Under the pieces are notes generated by a model. It was not told the DNA's origin, made no database searches, and saw nothing but the letters and a program-made list of their open reading frames with translations. Below are positions 12,517 through 22,325 of a stretch of 25,373 nucleotides of DNA, in pieces (the stretch's first letter is position 1; each line of letters starts with the position of its first letter). The translations under genes were made by a program, and so were the position numbers. Source of the stretch: Escherichia coli. GTDB taxonomy: Bacteria; Pseudomonadota; Gammaproteobacteria; Enterobacterales; Enterobacteriaceae. The DNA is taken from NCBI RefSeq assembly GCF_003334765.1, contig NZ_QOWT01000045.1. One strand, given 5' to 3'.

Positions 12517-13200
12517 ATGAAACTGCTGATTGTCGAAGATGAAAAGAAAACCGGAGAATACTTGACCAAAGGGTTAACCGAAGCCGGTTTTGTGGTCGAT
12601 TTGGCCGACAACGGGCTGAATGGCTACCATCTGGCGATGACCGGAGATTATGACCTGATAATCCTCGATATTATGCTGCCGGACGTGAACGGCTGGGATA
12701 TCGTGCGCATGTTGCGCTCCGCCAATAAAGGGATGCCGATTCTGTTGCTTACCGCGCTTGGCACCATTGAACATCGCGTCAAGGGGCTGGAGTTGGGGGC
12801 CGATGACTATCTGGTGAAGCCGTTCGCTTTTGCTGAACTGCTGGCGCGGGTGCGCACTCTCCTGCGGCGCGGGGCGGCGGTGATTATCGAAAGTCAGTTT
12901 CAGGTTGCCGATCTGATGGTCGATCTCGTCAGCCGCAAAGTCACCCGCAGCGGCACGCGCATCACTCTGACCAGTAAAGAATTTACTCTGCTGGAGTTTT
13001 TCCTTCGCCATCAGGGCGAAGTGCTGCCCCGCTCGCTTATCGCCTCGCAGGTATGGGACATGAATTTCGACAGCGACACTAACGCCATTGATGTGGCGGT
13101 GAAGCGGCTACGCGGCAAAATCGACAACGACTTTGAGCCGAAGCTGATTCAAACCGTGCGCGGCGTGGGTTACATGCTTGAGGTGCCGGATGGTCAGTAA
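12517..13200 (+). CDS. cusR: Copper-responsive two-component response regulator CusR (OmpR family), 227 aa
   Basis: [70 protein letters not shown]..., receiver plus winged-helix domains. Confidence 0.95.
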
Positions 13201-14781: not shown

Positions 14782-17019
14782 GTGGACTGGCTTCTTGATG
14801 TTTTTGCTACCTGGCTCTACGGCTTAAAAGTAATCGCGATAACGTTAGCGGTCATCATGTTCATCAGCGGGCTGGACGATTTTTTTATTGATGTCGTCTA
14901 CTGGGTACGCCGCATTAAACGCAAGTTGAGTGTTTATCGCCGCTACCCGCGAATGAGTTACCGCGAACTGTATAAACCAGATGAAAAACCGTTAGCGATT
15001 ATGGTTCCGGCGTGGAATGAAACGGGCGTCATCGGCAATATGGCCGAGCTGGCGGCGACCACGCTCGACTACGAAAACTATCATATCTTTGTTGGCACCT
15101 ACCCCAACGCCCCCGATACTCAGCGTGATGTTGACGAAGTGTGCGCTCGCTTCCCGAATGTGCATAAGGTAGTCTGCGCGCGTCCTGGCCCCACCAGCAA
15201 AGCCGACTGTCTGAACAACGTGCTGGACGCCATCACCCAATTTGAGCGTAGCGCCAATTTCGCTTTTGCTGGTTTTATTCTGCATGACGCCGAAGATGTG
15301 ATTTCACCGATGGAATTGCGTCTGTTCAACTATCTGGTCGAGCGTAAAGATCTGATTCAGATCCCGGTGTATCCGTTCGAACGCGAATGGACGCACTTCA
15401 CCAGCATGACTTACATTGATGAGTTTTCAGAGCTGCATGGCAAAGATGTTCCGGTGCGTGAAGCCCTCGCCGGACAAGTGCCCAGCGCAGGCGTCGGCAC
15501 CTGTTTCAGCCGCCGCGCCGTGACCGCACTGTTAGCTGACGGTGACGGTATTGCTTTCGACGTGCAGAGTCTTACTGAAGATTACGACATTGGCTTCCGC
15601 CTGAAAGAAAAAGGTATGACGGAAATTTTTGTCCGTTTTCCGGTGGTGGACGAAGCCAAAGAACGCGAGCAGCGTAAATTTTTACAGCACGCGCGGACAT
15701 CAAACATGATCTGCGTGCGCGAATATTTCCCCGATACCTTTTCGACTGCGGTTCGACAAAAATCCCGCTGGATCATCGGCATTGTTTTCCAAGGCTTTAA
15801 AACCCATAAATGGACCTCCAGCCTGACGCTGAACTACTTTCTCTGGCGCGACCGCAAAGGGGCAATCAGTAACTTTGTCAGCTTCCTCGCGATGCTGGTG
15901 ATGATCCAGCTTTTGCTGTTGCTGGCGTATGAAAGTTTGTGGCCCGATGCCTGGCATTTCCTTTCTATTTTCAGCGGCAGCGCATGGTTAATGACCCTGC
16001 TGTGGCTAAACTTTGGTTTGATGGTTAACCGCATCGTGCAGCGGGTGATTTTCGTTACTGGCTACTACGGCCTGACGCAGGGGCTGCTTTCCGTCCTGCG
16101 TCTTTTCTGGGGCAACCTGATTAACTTCATGGCCAACTGGCGCGCGCTAAAACAGGTACTTCAACACGGCGATCCACGTCGCGTGGCGTGGGATAAAACA
16201 ACGCATGACTTCCCCAGCGTGACTGGCGATACCCGCTCGTTGCGCCCGTTAGGTCAAATTCTGCTGGAAAATCAGGTCATCACTGAAGAACAACTCGATA
16301 CAGCACTGCGTAATCGCGTCGAAGGTCTACGCCTGGGCGGTTCAATGCTGATGCAGGGGCTGATTAGCGCCGAGCAGCTGGCACAGGCGCTGGCAGAGCA
16401 AAACGGCGTGGCGTGGGAATCCATCGATGCCTGGCAGATCCCTTCCTCGCTGATTGCCGAAATGCCGGCCTCCGTGGCGCTGCATTATGCGGTACTGCCG
16501 CTGCGTCTGGAAAATGACGAGTTAATTGTCGGCAGTGAAGATGGTATTGACCCGGTTTCGCTGGCGGCCCTGACGCGTAAAGTCGGACGCAAAGTGCGTT
16601 ACGTCATTGTTCTGCGGGGACAAATTGTCACAGGGTTACGTCACTGGTATGCACGCCGACGCGGTCACGATCCGCGGGCAATGTTGTACAATGCGGTTCA
16701 GCATCAGTGGCTCACGGAACAGCAGGCCGGTGAAATCTGGCGGCAATATGTGCCGCATCAGTTCCTGTTCGCCGAAATACTGACCACGCTCGGTCATATT
16801 AATCGTTCAGCAATTAACGTGTTGTTATTGCGCCATGAACGCAGTTCTCTGCCGCTCGGCAAGTTTTTGGTCACCGAAGGCGTTATCAGCCAGGAAACGT
16901 TGGATCGCGTCCTGACAATTCAACGCGAATTACAAGTTTCGATGCAATCACTATTACTCAAAGCAGGTTTAAACACAGAACAGGTTGCGCAACTGGAGTC
17001 CGAAAATGAAGGAGAATAA
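14782..17019 (+). CDS. nfrB: Phage N4 adsorption protein B: inner-membrane family-2 glycosyltransferase with C-terminal MshEN-type c-di-GMP-binding domain, 745 aa
   Basis: GTG start 14782: MDWLLDVFATWLYGLKVIAITLAVIMF.... Two RLGxxLLxxGLIxxxxLxxxLxxQ-like motifs at 16330..16401 and 16852..16923. Confidence 0.9.
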   Translation: MDWLLDVFATWLYGLKVIAITLAVIMFISGLDDFFIDVVYWVRRIKRKLSVYRRYPRMSYRELYKPDEKPLAIMVPAWNETGVIGNMAELAATTLDYENYHIFVGTYPNAPDTQRDVDEVCARFPNVHKVVCARPGPTSKADCLNNVLDAITQFERSANFAFAGFILHDAEDVISPMELRLFNYLVERKDLIQIPVYPFEREWTHFTSMTYIDEFSELHGKDVPVREALAGQVPSAGVGTCFSRRAVTALLADGDGIAFDVQSLTEDYDIGFRLKEKGMTEIFVRFPVVDEAKEREQRKFLQHARTSNMICVREYFPDTFSTAVRQKSRWIIGIVFQGFKTHKWTSSLTLNYFLWRDRKGAISNFVSFLAMLVMIQLLLLLAYESLWPDAWHFLSIFSGSAWLMTLLWLNFGLMVNRIVQRVIFVTGYYGLTQGLLSVLRLFWGNLINFMANWRALKQVLQHGDPRRVAWDKTTHDFPSVTGDTRSLRPLGQILLENQVITEEQLDTALRNRVEGLRLGGSMLMQGLISAEQLAQALAEQNGVAWESIDAWQIPSSLIAEMPASVALHYAVLPLRLENDELIVGSEDGIDPVSLAALTRKVGRKVRYVIVLRGQIVTGLRHWYARRRGHDPRAMLYNAVQHQWLTEQQAGEIWRQYVPHQFLFAEILTTLGHINRSAINVLLLRHERSSLPLGKFLVTEGVISQETLDRVLTIQRELQVSMQSLLLKAGLNTEQVAQLESENEGE

Positions 17020-19978
17020 CCTTAATCGCGTCATCGGATGGTCTGGTTTACTGCTGACGTCTTTATTGAGTACCAGCGCACTCGCAGACAATATCGGCAC
17101 CAGCGCAGAAGAGCTGGGGCTGAGCGATTATCGCCATTTTGTTATTTATCCCCGTCTCGATAAAGCGCTGAAGGCACAGAAAAATAACGACGAAGCAACC
17201 GCCATCCGCGAATTTGAATATATACACCAGCAGGTGCCGGATAATATTCCGCTGACTTTATACCTTGCGGAAGCCTATCGCCATTTTGGTCATGATGACC
17301 GGGCGCGGCTGTTGCTTGAGGATCAACTGAAACGTCACCCAGGAGATGCCCGACTTGAGCGCAGTCTGGCGGCTATTCCGGTTGAAGTGAAAAGCGTTAC
17401 GACAGTTGAAGAACTGCTTGCCCAGCAAAAAGCGTGCGATGCTGCGCCGACCCTGCGTTGTCGCAGTGAAGTCGGGCAGAATGCCCTGCGGCTGGCACAG
17501 TTACCTGTCGCCAGAGCGCAACTGAACGATGCGACGTTTGCTGCATCGCCGGAAGGAAAAACGCTGCGAACCGATCTGCTGCAACGGGCAATCTACCTGA
17601 AACAATGGTCCCAGGCAGATACGCTATACAATGAAGCACGCCAGCAGAACACATTAAGCGCGGCAGAACGCCGTCAGTGGTTTGACGTGCTTCTTGCCGG
17701 GCAGCTGGACGATCGGATCCTGGCACTGCAATCACAGGGGATCTTCACCGATCCTCAGTCATATATTACTTACGCGACCGCGCTGGCTTATCGTGGCGAA
17801 AAAGCACGCCTCCAGCATTATCTCATTGAAAATAAGCCACTATTTACCACGGACGCACAAGAGAAAAGTTGGCTCTATCTGTTATCTAAATACAGCGCTA
17901 ACCCCGTTCAGGCGTTGGCGAATTATACGGTACAGTTTGCCGACAACCGCCAGTATGTTGTTGGCGCGACGCTACCGGTGCTGTTAAAAGAAGGTCAGTA
18001 CGACGCAGCGCAAAAACTGCTCGCCACCCTCCCCGCCAATGAAATGCTTGAGGAGCGTTATGCTGTCAGCGTGGCGACCCGTAACAAGGCTGAAGCTCTG
18101 CGTCTGGCACGATTGCTGTATCAGCAAGAACCGGCAAATCTTACCCGCCTGGATCAACTAACCTGGCAACTGATGCAGAACGAGCAGTCACGCGAAGCTG
18201 CCGATTTATTGCTGCAACGCTATCCTTTCCAGGGCGATGCGCGTGTCAGCCAGACTTTAATGGCGCGACTGGCGTCTCTGCTGGAAAGTCATCCTTACCT
18301 GGCAACGCCGGCGAAGGTGGCGATTTTATCGAAACCCTTACCGCTGGCGGAGCAACGTCAGTGGCAAAGTCAGTTGCCGGGTATTGCAGATAATTGCCCG
18401 GCAATAGTTCGCTTGCTGGGCGATATGTCGCCTTCCTACGATGCCGCCGCCTGGAACCGTCTGGCAAAGTGTTATCGGGACACGCTACCCGGTGTGGCGT
18501 TGTATGCATGGCTTCAGGCCGAACAACGACAACCGAGCGCCTGGCAACATCGTGCGGTAGCCTATCAGGCGTATCAGGTTGAGGACTACGCCACCGCACT
18601 GGCGGCCTGGCAGAAAATCAGTCTTCACGACATGAGCAATGAGGATCTGCTTGCTGCTGCCAATACCGCCCAGGCGGCAGGAAATGGTGCGGCTCGCGAT
18701 CGCTGGCTACAACAGGCAGAAAAACGTGGACTGGGAAGCAATGCCCTCTACTGGTGGCTGCATGCGCAACGTTACATTCCTGGTCAGCCGGAACTCGCAC
18801 TGAACGATCTCACGCGCTCAATCAATATTGCGCCTTCTGCCAACGCTTACGTTGCGCGGGCGACAATTTATCGCCAACGTCATAATGTCCCGGCCGCGGT
18901 GAGTGATTTGCGCGCCGCGCTGGAACTGGAACCGAATAATAGCAACACCCAGGCAGCGCTTGGTTACGCCTTGTGGGATAGCGGTGATATCGCACAGTCG
19001 CGGGAAATGCTCGAACCGGCGCATAAAGGGCTTCCGGACGATCCGGCACTGATCCGACAACTGGCCTACGTGAACCAGCGTCTGGATGACATGCCTGCGA
19101 CGCAGCACTACGCCCGGCTGGTGATTGATGACATTGATAATCAGGCGCTGATAACCCCACTGACCCCAGAACAAAATCAACAACGCTTCAATTTCCGCCG
19201 TTTGCATGAGGAGGTCGGTCGCCGCTGGACGTTCAGTTTCGATTCTTCCATCGGCTTGCGTTCCGGCGCAATGAGTACCGCTAACAATAATGTCGGCGGC
19301 GCAGCGCCAGGGAAAAGCTATCGTAGCTACGGACAACTGGAAGCCGAGTACCGCATCGGACGCAATATGCTGCTGGAAGGCGACCTGCTCTCAGTTTATA
19401 GCCGCGTCTTTGCCGATACCGGAGAAAACGGGGTGATGATGCCGGTGAAAAATCCGATGTCCGGCACCGGTCTGCGCTGGAAGCCGCTGCGCGATCAGAT
19501 CTTTTTCATCGCCGTCGAACAGCAGTTGCCGCTGAACGGCCAAAATGGCGCATCCGATACCATGCTGCGCGCCAGCGCCTCATTCTTTAATGGCGGCAAA
19601 TACAGCGACGAATGGCACCCGAACGGTTCAGGCTGGTTTGCCCAAAACCTGTACCTCGATGCGGCGCAATATATCCGCCAGGATATTCAGGCGTGGACGG
19701 CAGATTATCGCGTCAGCTGGCATCAGAAGGTAGCTAACGGACAGACTATTGAGCCTTACGCTCACGTTCAGGACAACGGCTATCGTGATAAAGGCACTCA
19801 GGGCGCGCAGCTTGGCGGAGTCGGGGTCCGCTGGAATATCTGGACCGGCGAGACGCACTACGACGCCTGGCCGCACAAAGTCAGTCTCGGCGTCGAGTAT
19901 CAACATACCTTTAAGGCGATTAATCAACGTAACGGAGAGCGCAACAACGCGTTTCTCACCATTGGAGTGCACTGGTAA
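17006..19978 (+). CDS. nfrA: Phage N4 adsorption protein A: outer-membrane protein with TPR-rich periplasmic part and C-terminal beta-barrel, 990 aa
   Basis: ATG at 17006 overlaps the nfrB 3' end by 14 nt. MKENNLNRVIGWSGLLLTSLLSTSALA..., recognised as NfrA. Confidence 0.9.
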   Translation: MKENNLNRVIGWSGLLLTSLLSTSALADNIGTSAEELGLSDYRHFVIYPRLDKALKAQKNNDEATAIREFEYIHQQVPDNIPLTLYLAEAYRHFGHDDRARLLLEDQLKRHPGDARLERSLAAIPVEVKSVTTVEELLAQQKACDAAPTLRCRSEVGQNALRLAQLPVARAQLNDATFAASPEGKTLRTDLLQRAIYLKQWSQADTLYNEARQQNTLSAAERRQWFDVLLAGQLDDRILALQSQGIFTDPQSYITYATALAYRGEKARLQHYLIENKPLFTTDAQEKSWLYLLSKYSANPVQALANYTVQFADNRQYVVGATLPVLLKEGQYDAAQKLLATLPANEMLEERYAVSVATRNKAEALRLARLLYQQEPANLTRLDQLTWQLMQNEQSREAADLLLQRYPFQGDARVSQTLMARLASLLESHPYLATPAKVAILSKPLPLAEQRQWQSQLPGIADNCPAIVRLLGDMSPSYDAAAWNRLAKCYRDTLPGVALYAWLQAEQRQPSAWQHRAVAYQAYQVEDYATALAAWQKISLHDMSNEDLLAAANTAQAAGNGAARDRWLQQAEKRGLGSNALYWWLHAQRYIPGQPELALNDLTRSINIAPSANAYVARATIYRQRHNVPAAVSDLRAALELEPNNSNTQAALGYALWDSGDIAQSREMLEPAHKGLPDDPALIRQLAYVNQRLDDMPATQHYARLVIDDIDNQALITPLTPEQNQQRFNFRRLHEEVGRRWTFSFDSSIGLRSGAMSTANNNVGGAAPGKSYRSYGQLEAEYRIGRNMLLEGDLLSVYSRVFADTGENGVMMPVKNPMSGTGLRWKPLRDQIFFIAVEQQLPLNGQNGASDTMLRASASFFNGGKYSDEWHPNGSGWFAQNLYLDAAQYIRQDIQAWTADYRVSWHQKVANGQTIEPYAHVQDNGYRDKGTQGAQLGGVGVRWNIWTGETHYDAWPHKVSLGVEYQHTFKAINQRNGERNNAFLTIGVHW

Positions 19979-20869
19979 ATGCGTAAGTTCATTTTCGTAT
20001 TGCTGACACTGCTTTTGGTCAGCCCTTTTTCCTTTGCGATGAAAGGTATTATCTGGCAACCACAAAACCGAGATAGTCAGGTTACCGATACCCAGTGGCA
20101 GGGGCTGATGAGTCAGTTACGTTTGCAAGGCTTCGATACCCTTGTTTTGCAATGGACCCGTTACGGCGATGCATTTACCCAGCCAGAACAGCGCACGTTA
20201 TTGTTTAAGCGGGCCGCAGCTGCGCAACAGGCTGGTCTGAAGCTTATTGTCGGGCTGAACGCCGATCCGGAATTTTTTATGCACCAGAAACAGTCGTCCG
20301 CAGCGCTGGAAAGCTATCTTAATCGCCTGCTGGCTGCCGATCTCCAGCAAGCCAGATTATGGAGCGCCGCGCCTGGCATAACGCCGGATGGCTGGTACAT
20401 CAGCGCGGAAATTGACGACCTGAACTGGCGCAGCGAAGCCGCCCGTCAGCCTTTGCTAACATGGTTAAACAACGCGCAGCGGCTGATTAGCGATGTTTCA
20501 GCAAAACCGGTTTATATCAGTAGTTTTTTCGCCGGAAACATGTCGCCCGATGGCTATCGCCAACTGCTGGAACACGTTAAAGCAACCGGCGTTAATGTCT
20601 GGGTACAGGATGGCAGCGGCGTGGATAAACTGACCGCTGAACAGCGTGAACGTTATTTACAGGCCAGCGCCGATTGCCAAAGTCCCGCCCCTGCCAGCGG
20701 CGTTGTTTATGAACTTTTTGTCGCCGGCAAAGGCAAAACCTTTACAGCGAAACCGAAACCGGACGCAGAAATTGCCTCGCTGTTAGCGAAACGTTCCTCT
20801 TGCGGTAAAGACACTCTCTATTTCTCTCTGCGCTATTTGCCCGTCGCGCACGGCATTCTCGAGTATTAA
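19979..20869 (+). CDS. ybcH: Uncharacterized secreted/periplasmic protein YbcH, 296 aa, third gene of the nfrBA operon
   Basis: ATG immediately follows the nfrA TAA (TAAATG). MRKFIFVLLTLLLVSPFSFAMKGIIWQP... with an N-terminal signal peptide. Confidence 0.85.
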   Translation: MRKFIFVLLTLLLVSPFSFAMKGIIWQPQNRDSQVTDTQWQGLMSQLRLQGFDTLVLQWTRYGDAFTQPEQRTLLFKRAAAAQQAGLKLIVGLNADPEFFMHQKQSSAALESYLNRLLAADLQQARLWSAAPGITPDGWYISAEIDDLNWRSEAARQPLLTWLNNAQRLISDVSAKPVYISSFFAGNMSPDGYRQLLEHVKATGVNVWVQDGSGVDKLTAEQRERYLQASADCQSPAPASGVVYELFVAGKGKTFTAKPKPDAEIASLLAKRSSCGKDTLYFSLRYLPVAHGILEY

Positions 20870-21051
20870 ATCTCCTCCAGGTAAGTCGGGTACGACCTGG
20901 CTTACCTCTTTCGCTCTCATCAGAATTCCATCAAGATTAATTGCTAAAAAGCGTGCTAAAGAAAGAAGATCGTTATCGGCGAACGGGCCGATCACTCATG
21001 CAGGAAGCATAGATCCTTTGAGCGGAGTTTCTGATATCTGAGGAGTGCGAA

Positions 21052-21813: not shown

Positions 21814-21858
21814 AGGGCAAAGCGGAAACGGATAAGACGGGCATAAATGAGGAAGAAA

Positions 21859-21903
21859 TGGCGCGCCCTGCAGGATTCGAACCTGCGGCCCACGACTTAG
21901 AAG
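21859..21903 (-). pseudogene. pauD: Truncated tRNA-Arg(UCU) 3' fragment (pauD-like), the prophage attachment scar of an argU-integrated lambdoid element
   Basis: Minus-strand sense reads CTTCTAAGTCGTGGGCCGCAGGTTCGAATCCTGCAGGGCGCGCCA: anticodon loop with TCT, complete T-arm, acceptor 3' half and CCA, but no D-arm or 5' acceptor half. Identity to argU as I recall it ends at 21903/21904. Confidence 0.8.
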
Positions 21904-22325
21904 TTCCTAGAACGACATTTTAAGTCAACAACTTACCGCGCCATCTCTGCGCTCACACGTCCCACTACCTCAAAACATGTAAAGCCTTGCAAGCCATTGT
22001 GAGGCCTTATGTGTCTCAGTTTTGTCCCTCTTTTTTGTACCAAAAAACATAGCAATTGAGGATAAACCTCATGCTATTTTCGCTTATATGCCTCTAAAGG
22101 CATGGCGCTTAAATAGATAAAAACACCACAAAAGCATAAAAAACCACACAGTAAAACCGCAACATAAAACAATAACAGATAATTAAACCAAAAACAGATA
22201 GCGCATTGTGATAATCATTCAATACTAAACAAAATATAAACAGTGGAGCAATATGTAATTGACTCATTAAGTTAGATATAAAAAATACATATTCAATCAT
22301 TAAAACGATTGAATGGAGAACTTTT

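What the first reader, a model, noticed from the sequence alone, without database searches (positions are those of the whole stretch)
17006..20869. nfrB-nfrA-ybcH are translationally coupled
nfrA starts 14 nt inside nfrB, and ybcH starts at the base after the nfrA stop (TAAATG). This packing argues that the secreted YbcH protein works with the NfrB synthase and NfrA outer-membrane component as a three-part exopolysaccharide synthesis/export unit, analogous to synthase-porin-periplasmic enzyme systems such as Pga or Bcs.
Basis: partly seen in the sequence, partly recalled or inferred. Interest (0 to 1): 0.3.

Follow-up and report, generated by a model that had tools for sequence, protein, structure and literature searches.

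The report
Known nfrB-nfrA-ybcH exopolysaccharide operon
The three tightly packed E. coli genes nfrB, nfrA and ybcH are real and do form one sugar-polymer export unit, but this was published in 2021; the only new point here is that YbcH looks like a sugar-cutting enzyme, not a passive scaffold.

Summary
nfrA (ATG 17006) starts 14 nt inside nfrB (stop 17017-17019). ybcH (ATG 19979) starts on the base after the nfrA stop (TAAATG). RefSeq and NCBIfam models support these boundaries. Junkermeier & Hengge (mBio 2021, PMC8669469) already describe the nfrBA-ybcH operon, the 14-nt overlap, and a three-part system of synthase, periplasmic protein and TPR-porin. They found ybcH dispensable for N4 plaques and only partly needed for the motility phenotype. 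True translational coupling remains untested.

What I add:
- In every YbcH homologue with a readable upstream gene (52% down to 26% identity; 7 independent contexts), ybcH directly follows an nfrA-like gene, with gaps of -4 to +13 nt. An nfrB-like synthase gene lies before that, and in two lineages a wecB-like epimerase gene heads the cluster.
- YbcH (Pfam DUF4434) models confidently as a (β/α)8 barrel, with invariant glutamates at the ends of strands 4 and 7.
- Its closest folds are clan GH-A glycoside hydrolases (mannanases/mannosidases) and the PgaB hydrolase domain.
- Its N-terminus looks like a cleavable signal peptide.

YbcH is therefore most likely the system's periplasmic glycoside hydrolase, not a "scaffold". 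Interest is low.

The parts
14782..17019 (+). nfrB: inner-membrane family-2 glycosyltransferase (synthase) with a C-terminal MshEN c-di-GMP-binding domain
   Evidence: ORF. NCBIfam NF008411 'cyclic di-GMP-activated glycosyltransferase NfrB', 1328.7 bits against a cutoff of 1170, plus the MshE-related c-di-GMP motif NF053729, E 1.4e-18. RefSeq annotation. The start is GUGUG (listed in PMC9841429).
17006..17019 (+). 14-nt overlap of the nfrB 3' end with the nfrA 5' end (ATGAAGGAGAATAA)
   Evidence: Sequence read. The same overlap is stated in PMC8669469, Fig. 1B.
16995..16998 (+). GGAG Shine-Dalgarno-like element for nfrA, 7 nt before its ATG and inside nfrB
   Evidence: Sequence read.
17006..19978 (+). 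nfrA: signal peptide, periplasmic TPR region and C-terminal outer-membrane beta-barrel (NfrA_C)
   Evidence: NCBIfam NF007302, 1889.5 bits, aligned 1-990/990, plus TPR-family hits at residues 590-704. Homologues carry Pfam NfrA_C PF13283 and TPR families.
19976..19981 (+). TAAATG junction: nfrA stop immediately followed by the ybcH start, in the same frame
   Evidence: Sequence read.
19964..19967 (+). GGAG 11 nt before the ybcH ATG, inside nfrA (long spacing)
   Evidence: Sequence read.
19979..20869 (+). ybcH: exported DUF4434 protein, predicted (beta/alpha)8-barrel glycoside hydrolase
19979..20038 (+). YbcH residues 1-20, MRKFIFVLLTLLLVSPFSFA: signal peptide with S-F-A at positions -3 to -1
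   Evidence: Translation. An n-h-c architecture ending in an A-x-A-type site directly before the mature domain recurs in homologues, and a few homologues have lipoboxes instead.
20408..20410 (+). Codon for Glu144, invariant in 121/121 homologues, at the end of beta-strand 4: candidate acid/base
20711..20713 (+). Codon for Glu245, invariant in 121/121 homologues, at the end of beta-strand 7: candidate nucleophile
20879..20907 (+). 13-bp perfect hairpin 10 nt after the ybcH stop: likely the 3' end of the operon transcript (weak U tract)
   Evidence: RNA fold -20.8 kcal/mol, z -2.89, with 2 of 200 shuffles folding as well. No comparable element lies between the three genes.

Best explanation
nfrB-nfrA-ybcH is one operon in the E. 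coli core genome. It encodes a synthase-dependent exopolysaccharide system.

Shown by others: NfrB is a c-di-GMP-activated GT2 synthase that makes a ManNAc-dependent polymer, the N4 glycan receptor. NfrA is required together with it.

Shown here by sequence: NfrA is a TPR plus beta-barrel outer-membrane protein. The three ORFs are packed with a 14-nt overlap and a zero-nt spacer. This order and tightness are conserved in distant proteobacterial lineages.

Inferred: the three proteins are made from one mRNA. Ribosomes finishing nfrB or nfrA can start the next gene at GGAG-preceded AUGs that lie within or next to the stop codon. This would tie the amounts of porin and periplasmic enzyme to the low amount of synthase.

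Inferred from fold and conservation: YbcH is exported by a cleavable signal peptide. It acts in the periplasm as a clan-GH-A-type glycoside hydrolase, with Glu144 on strand 4 and Glu245 on strand 7 as the catalytic pair. It would trim or clear the nascent Nfr polymer between NfrB and the NfrA TPR/porin. This is an accessory role like that of BcsZ, the PgaB hydrolase domain, PslG or PelA, and it would explain why its loss gives only partial phenotypes.

Confidence by sub-claim: about 0.9 for 'one functional unit', about 0.6 for 'YbcH is a hydrolase of the Nfr polymer', and about 0.5 for genuine translational coupling.
For: Geometry and boundaries.

Prior experimental work: the nfrBA-ybcH operon model, NfrB c-di-GMP binding and GT activity, the partial ybcH motility phenotype, and the moderate N4 fitness effect of ybcH mutants. 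RNA polymerase occupancy of nfrA and ybcH rises together in an rpoZ mutant.

Operon signals: no sigma70-like match on the + strand between 15711 and 21300, and a strong hairpin only after ybcH.

Synteny: YbcH homologues at 52, 46, 33, 32, 32, 30 and 26% identity all sit directly after an NfrA_C gene. An NfrB-like GT2 gene lies upstream wherever the contig reaches that far. A wecB-like Epimerase_2 gene heads the cluster in Rhodanobacter and in one uncultured lineage. Junction gaps are listed.

Enzyme reading:
- 121-sequence alignment with invariant Q27, Q58, W59, G92, E144 and E245; nearly invariant residues all lie at the strand C-termini.
- AlphaFold2 pLDDT 95.4 with eight beta/alpha units, E144 at the end of strand 138-145 and E245 at the end of strand 241-245.
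- Profile hit to 4h41, E 8e-7, aligning GWYxxxEI.
- Signal-peptide pattern conserved across homologues.
Against: - ybcH is dispensable for N4 plaque formation, and its deletion only partly relieves the motility defect, so it is not an obligatory subunit.
- The authors who studied it call it a membrane-anchored scaffold with no signal-peptidase site.
- No DUF4434 protein has a demonstrated activity.
- The Asn that normally precedes the acid/base Glu in clan GH-A is absent. Position 143 is Ala in E. coli and variable in the family.
- No Pfam GH family is hit at sequence level, and the Foldseek PDB matches are weak, with TM about 0.45-0.54.
- I could not inspect the model coordinates to confirm that E144 and E245 face each other.
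- Coupling: the ybcH GGAG spacing of 11 nt is long, each gene has its own SD, and the junction RNAs are no more structured than shuffles.
- Neither co-transcription nor coupling was measured in any source I read.
Confidence: 0.8

Rival explanations
1. YbcH is a non-catalytic periplasmic scaffold. [quoted passage not shown] This is the published proposal.
For: Stated in PMC8669469 and repeated in the 2023 review. If the N-terminus were uncleaved, only about 6-8 residues would separate the hydrophobic helix (residues 2-12 or so) from barrel strand 1 (residue 22), holding the barrel at the membrane surface next to NfrB. The partial phenotype fits an assembly helper. The clan GH-A Asn-Glu motif is missing.
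Against: The invariant and nearly invariant residues (Q27, Q58-W59, G92-L93, D96, Y140, E144, D147, S181, Q210-D211-G212, E245-F247, F282) all sit at the C-terminal ends of the eight strands. That is the catalytic face of a TIM barrel, and they include two invariant glutamates on strands 4 and 7. A scaffold would be expected to conserve surface patches instead. S18-F19-A20 satisfies the -3/-1 rule, and equivalent A-x-A sites recur in homologues. Some homologues are lipoproteins, so the mode of tethering is not conserved.
Confidence: 0.2
2. The overlap and the TAAATG junction reflect only compact operon organisation and co-transcription. Each gene is translated from its own Shine-Dalgarno site, without dependence on translation of the upstream gene.
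For: Both downstream starts have their own GGAG. The junction regions show no RBS-sequestering structure: z +0.59 and +1.31 against shuffles. Equally tight junctions are common in neighbouring, unrelated operons. Junction geometry varies between homologues from -14 to +31 nt for B/A and from -4 to +13 nt for A/H, so no particular arrangement is required.
Against: Stop-start overlap or abutment places the terminating ribosome on the next start codon, and this arrangement generally gives some coupling (established knowledge, not tested here). The nfrA/ybcH junction is an overlap or a gap of at most 1 nt in 7 of 9 contexts.
Confidence: 0.45
3. YbcH is a hydrolase for a different envelope glycan, such as peptidoglycan or enterobacterial common antigen, and merely rides on the nfr transcript.
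Against: Linkage to nfrA/nfrB homologues is strict across distant lineages with no counter-example. The ECA link is explained by WecB supplying UDP-ManNAc to NfrB. The ybcH phenotypes are Nfr phenotypes.
Confidence: 0.05

Closest known systems
The Nfr system itself (nfrBA-ybcH operon; Junkermeier & Hengge 2021, Sellner et al. 2021)
   Same: It is the same locus and the same 14-nt overlap. The same three-component model was proposed: an inner-membrane c-di-GMP-activated synthase, a periplasmic protein, and a TPR beta-barrel porin.
   Different: The papers call YbcH a membrane-anchored scaffold without a cleavage site. My fold, conservation and N-terminus analyses favour a cleaved periplasmic glycoside hydrolase. 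Sellner et al. do not mention ybcH.
Pga system (PgaA porin-TPR, PgaB deacetylase plus GH153 hydrolase domain, PgaCD synthase)
   Different: YbcH has no deacetylase domain and is not a lipoprotein in E. coli. The c-di-GMP receptor is an MshEN domain fused to the synthase, not the PgaC-PgaD interface (and established knowledge). The polymer depends on ManNAc, not beta-1,6-GlcNAc.
Bcs cellulose system (BcsA-BcsB synthase, BcsC TPR-porin, BcsZ periplasmic endoglucanase)
   Same: It has the same logic of synthase, TPR-porin and accessory periplasmic hydrolase. From my own knowledge of the literature, loss of that hydrolase reduces but does not abolish function.
   Different: BcsZ is GH8 with an (alpha/alpha)6 fold, not a TIM barrel. 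Nfr in E. coli has no BcsB-like subunit. NfrB uses MshEN instead of PilZ.
PDB 4H41, BT_0435 of Bacteroides thetaiotaomicron ('putative alpha-L-fucosidase', structural genomics)
   Different: It has no demonstrated activity, and I found no paper on it. It comes from a Bacteroides protein, and I did not check its genomic neighbourhood.
Clan GH-A retaining glycoside hydrolases (GH5, GH113 and GH164 mannanases/mannosidases, GH42)
   Different: There is no sequence-level match. The conserved Asn before the acid/base Glu is missing. The substrate is unknown.

Membership tests
Synthase-dependent exopolysaccharide secretion system (Bcs/Pga/Alg/Pel type) | Inner-membrane processive GT2 synthase with a c-di-GMP receptor | tested here: met
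   NF008411 at 1328.7 bits and the MshE-type c-di-GMP motif at E 1.4e-18. The DxD (DAED), TED and QxxRW (QKSRW) motifs are visible in the NfrB sequence in the alignment. Binding and activity are shown in PMC8669469.
Synthase-dependent exopolysaccharide secretion system (Bcs/Pga/Alg/Pel type) | Outer-membrane beta-barrel exporter with a periplasmic TPR domain | tested here: met
   NF007302 aligned 1-990/990 and TPR-family hits at residues 590-704. Homologues carry NfrA_C plus TPR Pfam families. The structural similarity to PgaA/BcsC is reported in PMC8669472.
Synthase-dependent exopolysaccharide secretion system (Bcs/Pga/Alg/Pel type) | Co-encoded periplasmic polymer-modifying or polymer-cleaving enzyme | tested here: inconclusive
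   YbcH has a signal peptide, a confident TIM-barrel model with conserved glutamates on strands 4 and 7, and glycoside-hydrolase fold neighbours. No activity is known.
Synthase-dependent exopolysaccharide secretion system (Bcs/Pga/Alg/Pel type) | A secreted polymer is actually produced | not testable with these tools
   Reported experimentally in PMC8669469 and PMC8669472.
Pfam DUF4434 (PF14488) | Significant full-length match to the family HMM | tested here: met
   E 1.8e-69, residues 21-291 on model positions 1-282 of 283. All 121 aligned homologues match.
Clan GH-A ('4/7') glycoside hydrolases | (beta/alpha)8 barrel | tested here: met
Clan GH-A ('4/7') glycoside hydrolases | Catalytic Glu at the C-terminal ends of strand 4 (acid/base) and strand 7 (nucleophile) | tested here: met
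   E144 and E245 are invariant in 121/121 sequences and lie at the ends of strands 138-145 and 241-245.
Clan GH-A ('4/7') glycoside hydrolases | Asn immediately before the acid/base Glu (N-E motif) | tested here: not met
   Position 143 is Ala in E. coli. Across the family it is E 33, A 28, D 23 and L 15 of 121 sequences.
Clan GH-A ('4/7') glycoside hydrolases | Glycosidic-bond hydrolysis with retention | not testable with these tools
   No biochemical data were found for any DUF4434 protein.
Translationally coupled gene pair | Stop of the upstream ORF overlaps or abuts the downstream start, with an SD inside the upstream ORF | tested here: met
   14-nt overlap and TAAATG, with GGAG at 16995-16998 and 19964-19967.
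Translationally coupled gene pair | Downstream translation depends on translation of the upstream ORF | not testable with these tools
   No experiment was found. There is no RBS-masking structure at either junction.

The most novel reading that the evidence does not exclude
YbcH would be the first functionally assignable member of DUF4434. It would be a periplasmic retaining glycoside hydrolase specific for the ManNAc-based Nfr polymer (the N4 glycan receptor), using Glu144 and Glu245. It would found a new glycoside hydrolase family that always travels with NfrA/NfrB-type systems across Proteobacteria. It would control chain length or release of the phage receptor glycan, and could serve as a reagent to define the still-unsolved polymer structure.
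Probability: 0.5. Interest if true: 0.4.

Novelty: already known. Interest (0 to 1): 0.15.

Why it matters
The finding as written adds nothing to Junkermeier & Hengge 2021. The operon, the 14-nt overlap and the three-component analogy to Bcs/Pga are all in that paper.

The modest residual value lies in YbcH. The chemical structure of the Nfr/NGR glycan is still unknown. This glycan is the receptor for N4 and for several other E. coli phages. A dedicated hydrolase would give a tool to digest and characterise it, and would correct the 'scaffold' label in the current model. The conserved module of wecB, nfrB, nfrA and the DUF4434 gene in other lineages also gives a simple genomic marker for this polysaccharide pathway outside E. 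coli.

Tried and rejected
- Independent promoter for ybcH: the sigma70 consensus scan found no + strand site after 15710. The total of 3 sites is below the shuffle mean of 5.7, so the scan is weak evidence either way.
- Sigma-28 promoter upstream of nfrB, expected from the published FliA dependence: the best match is 11/16 and lies inside cusS. Forty positions in the window score as well, so nothing is usable.
- RBS-masking RNA structure at the two junctions as a sign of obligatory coupling: neither region folds better than shuffles.
- Sequence-level link of YbcH to solved structures or to known GH Pfam families: the single sequence gave nothing. The profile reached only 4h41. There were no significant Pfam cross-hits.
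- Foldseek against AFDB50 returned only unannotated DUF4434 proteins.
- Literature on DUF4434, 4H41 and BT_0435: nothing relevant.
- I asked whether long E. coli proteins carrying YbcH residues 50-296 (P0121-P0123) are NfrA-YbcH read-through fusions, since the two genes share a frame. They are not: the N-terminal part has no similarity to NfrA.
- Two homologue contigs (P0134, P0219) were too short to identify the upstream gene. They are uninformative, not counter-examples.
- I did not run the expensive genome contigs or metagenome scans, because the look-ups by protein already answered the synteny question.
Full report
**1. The observation**

The window is E. coli chromosome. Its gene order is ybdK, nfsB, ybdG, pheP, cusABFC, cusRS, nfrB, nfrA, ybcH, envY, ompT. 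On the + strand:
- nfrB runs 14782-17019, with a GTG start and a TAA stop at 17017-17019.
- nfrA runs 17006-19978.
- ybcH runs 19979-20869.

The nfrA ATG (17006) therefore lies 14 nt inside nfrB. The ybcH ATG (19979) is the base after the nfrA TAA, giving TAAATG with both genes in the same frame. RefSeq annotates identical boundaries in a 100%-identical genome. NCBIfam equivalog models align end to end with these starts.

Each downstream ATG is preceded by a GGAG inside the upstream gene. The spacing is 7 nt for nfrA and a rather long 11 nt for ybcH.

On its own it is not unusual. The same 36 kb contains cusR/cusS (-11), purE/purK (-4), folD/ybcJ (+1) and ppiB/lpxH (+2).

**2. It is already published**

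Junkermeier & Hengge (mBio 2021, PMC8669469) draw the 'nfrBA-ybcH operon' and state that nfrB overlaps nfrA by 14 nucleotides. The 2023 review repeats this.

- A ybcH deletion still supports N4 plaques.
- It only partly suppresses the Nfr-dependent motility defect of a pdeH ycgR strain, whereas nfrA or nfrB deletions suppress it fully.

A 2025 droplet RB-TnSeq preprint reports a moderate fitness gain of ybcH mutants under N4, against a high gain for nfrA, nfrB, wecB and dgcJ. Sellner et al. 2021 describe NfrA/NfrB and the WecB-dependent glycan but never mention ybcH.

**3. Operon signals in the sequence**

- No sigma70-like site lies on the + strand between 15711 and 21300. This is weak negative evidence.
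- No terminator-like element separates the genes.
- A perfect 13-bp hairpin (20879-20907, -20.8 kcal/mol, z -2.9) follows the ybcH stop, ahead of the 182-nt gap to envY.
- RNA polymerase occupancy of nfrA and ybcH rises together in an rpoZ mutant.
- I found no direct co-transcription experiment. In PMC8669469 the nfrB::lacZ fusion is simply taken to report the whole operon.
- I could not find a convincing sigma-28 promoter upstream of nfrB, despite the published FliA dependence.

**4. Translational coupling**

The geometry permits coupling, but nothing shows it. Neither junction has RNA structure beyond shuffled controls. Both downstream genes have their own GGAG. Coupling remains an inference, which I put at about 0.5.

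**5. Conservation in other organisms**

This is the best independent support that the three genes work together. I looked up the genomic contexts of YbcH homologues across the identity range.

| Homologue | Identity to YbcH | Upstream genes | B/A junction | A/H junction |
|---|---|---|---|---|
| Pragia | 52% | nfrB-like, nfrA-like | +1 | -1 |
| Rhodanobacter | 46% | wecB-like epimerase, nfrB-like, nfrA-like | -4 | -4 |
| P0162 | 33% | NfrB homologue (43% identity), NfrA_C | +31 | -1 |
| P0196 | 30% | epimerase, GT2 without MshEN (487 aa), NfrA_C | -4 | +9 |
| P0263 | 26% | GT2-MshEN, NfrA_C | -11 | -1 |
| P0247 | 32% (lipoprotein type) | NfrB-like, NfrA_C | +20 | +13 |
| P0227 | 32% | truncated gene matching NfrA residues 760-954 (E 3e-8) | not readable | +1 |

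Two contigs were too short to judge. There was no counter-example. AFDB50 shows the family in Gamma-, Beta- and Alphaproteobacteria, always unannotated.

Order and tightness are conserved, but the exact junction is not. This argues for selection on co-expression, not on any particular overlap.

**6. What YbcH is**

YbcH is Pfam DUF4434 (E 1.8e-69). The representative search gave 448 relatives.

- **Conservation.** An alignment of 121 diverse members has six invariant residues: Q27, Q58, W59, G92, E144 and E245. Nearly invariant ones include W40, L93, G138, W139, Y140, D147, S181, Q210, G212, G214, F247 and F282.
- **Model.** AlphaFold2 gives pLDDT 95.4 and pTM 0.91, with eight strand-helix units. 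Most of the conserved residues lie at or just after the C-terminal ends of the strands, which is the catalytic face of a TIM barrel. E144 ends strand 4 and E245 ends strand 7, the signature of clan GH-A retaining glycosidases.
- **Profile search.** The family profile reaches 4h41 at E 8e-7, with the GWYxxxEI motif aligned.
- **Caveats.** The N-E motif is absent. There is no sequence-level link to any named GH family. Foldseek against the PDB is weak. No family member has a known activity. I could not inspect the coordinates.

**7. Export**

The N-terminus MRKFIFVLLTLLLVSPFSFA|MKG has a charged n-region, an 11-residue hydrophobic core, a Pro in the c-region, and Ser/Ala at positions -3/-1. Close and distant homologues end their leaders with SQA, ANA, AIA, AAA, ASA, AFA, VQA, SYA, AQA and similar motifs directly before the mature domain. 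A few carry lipoboxes instead. This pattern argues for a cleaved periplasmic protein, contrary to the paper's 'no cleavage site' statement. I could not run a dedicated signal-peptide predictor, so this remains inference.

**8. Mechanism proposed**

- One low-abundance transcript makes the synthase, the porin and the enzyme.
- NfrB, activated by DgcJ-derived c-di-GMP, polymerises a sugar derived from UDP-ManNAc (published).
- NfrA conducts the polymer out.
- YbcH acts in the periplasm as an accessory hydrolase that trims or clears the polymer.

From my own knowledge of the field, BcsZ, PslG, PelA and the PgaB hydrolase domain are similarly accessory, and their loss gives partial or conditional phenotypes. 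This matches the behaviour of ybcH mutants.

**9. Verdict**

The incremental point is that YbcH is probably a glycoside hydrolase and is probably cleaved. That point is a testable refinement of modest interest.

Noticed in passing
window 14782-14786: nfrB starts with GUGUG, preceded by TAAGG. It is one of the 'gtGTG' starts tabulated in Nucleic Acids Res 2022 (PMC9841429), with NfrB abundance about 1 ppm and no predicted start ambiguity.
   Followed up: partly
window 13190-13200: cusR and cusS overlap by 11 nt (RefSeq coordinates shifted by -301). This is another multi-codon overlap just upstream, showing that such junctions are routine in this region.
   Followed up: no
window 20879-20907: A perfect 13-bp hairpin (-20.8 kcal/mol) lies 10 nt after the ybcH stop. 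It is followed by UCUUUCGCUCUC and not a clean U run. It is probably the operon's 3' end, but it is not a textbook intrinsic terminator, and the terminator scan did not list it.
   Followed up: partly
window 21814-25373 compared with L001 22115-23111: Downstream of envY the window carries ompT (22326-23279, omptin family) and a 494-aa ORF with a weak prolyl-aminopeptidase (alpha/beta-hydrolase) match (23466-24950). It has no tRNA. The otherwise identical strain FORC 064 has tRNA-Arg and fimZ there. The right flank of the nfr-envY block is therefore strain-variable.
   Followed up: partly
proteins P0096 and P0121-P0123 (E. coli variants, not in the window): Some E. coli assemblies encode hybrid proteins. 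One joins YbcH residues 1-146 to an AraC-type HTH, presumably envY after a deletion. Others are 589-718-aa proteins whose C-terminal part is YbcH 50-296 and whose N-terminal part is unrelated to NfrA and looks VgrG/Rhs-like. This suggests rearrangements at both ends of ybcH in some strains.
   Followed up: partly
L002 1730-8900; L007 2697-8873 (also L008): In Rhodanobacter and in an uncultured lineage, a wecB-like UDP-GlcNAc 2-epimerase gene heads the cluster, giving a self-contained four-gene module. In E. coli wecB is unlinked. The L007/L008 synthase is only 487 aa and lacks the MshEN domain, so that variant is presumably independent of c-di-GMP.
   Followed up: partly
window 19970-19978; L004 7990-8001: NfrA ends in ...His-Trp-stop in both E. 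coli and Pragia. A C-terminal aromatic residue is typical of the outer-membrane beta-barrel assembly signal. The ybcH SD and start therefore overlap codons that are themselves constrained.
   Followed up: no
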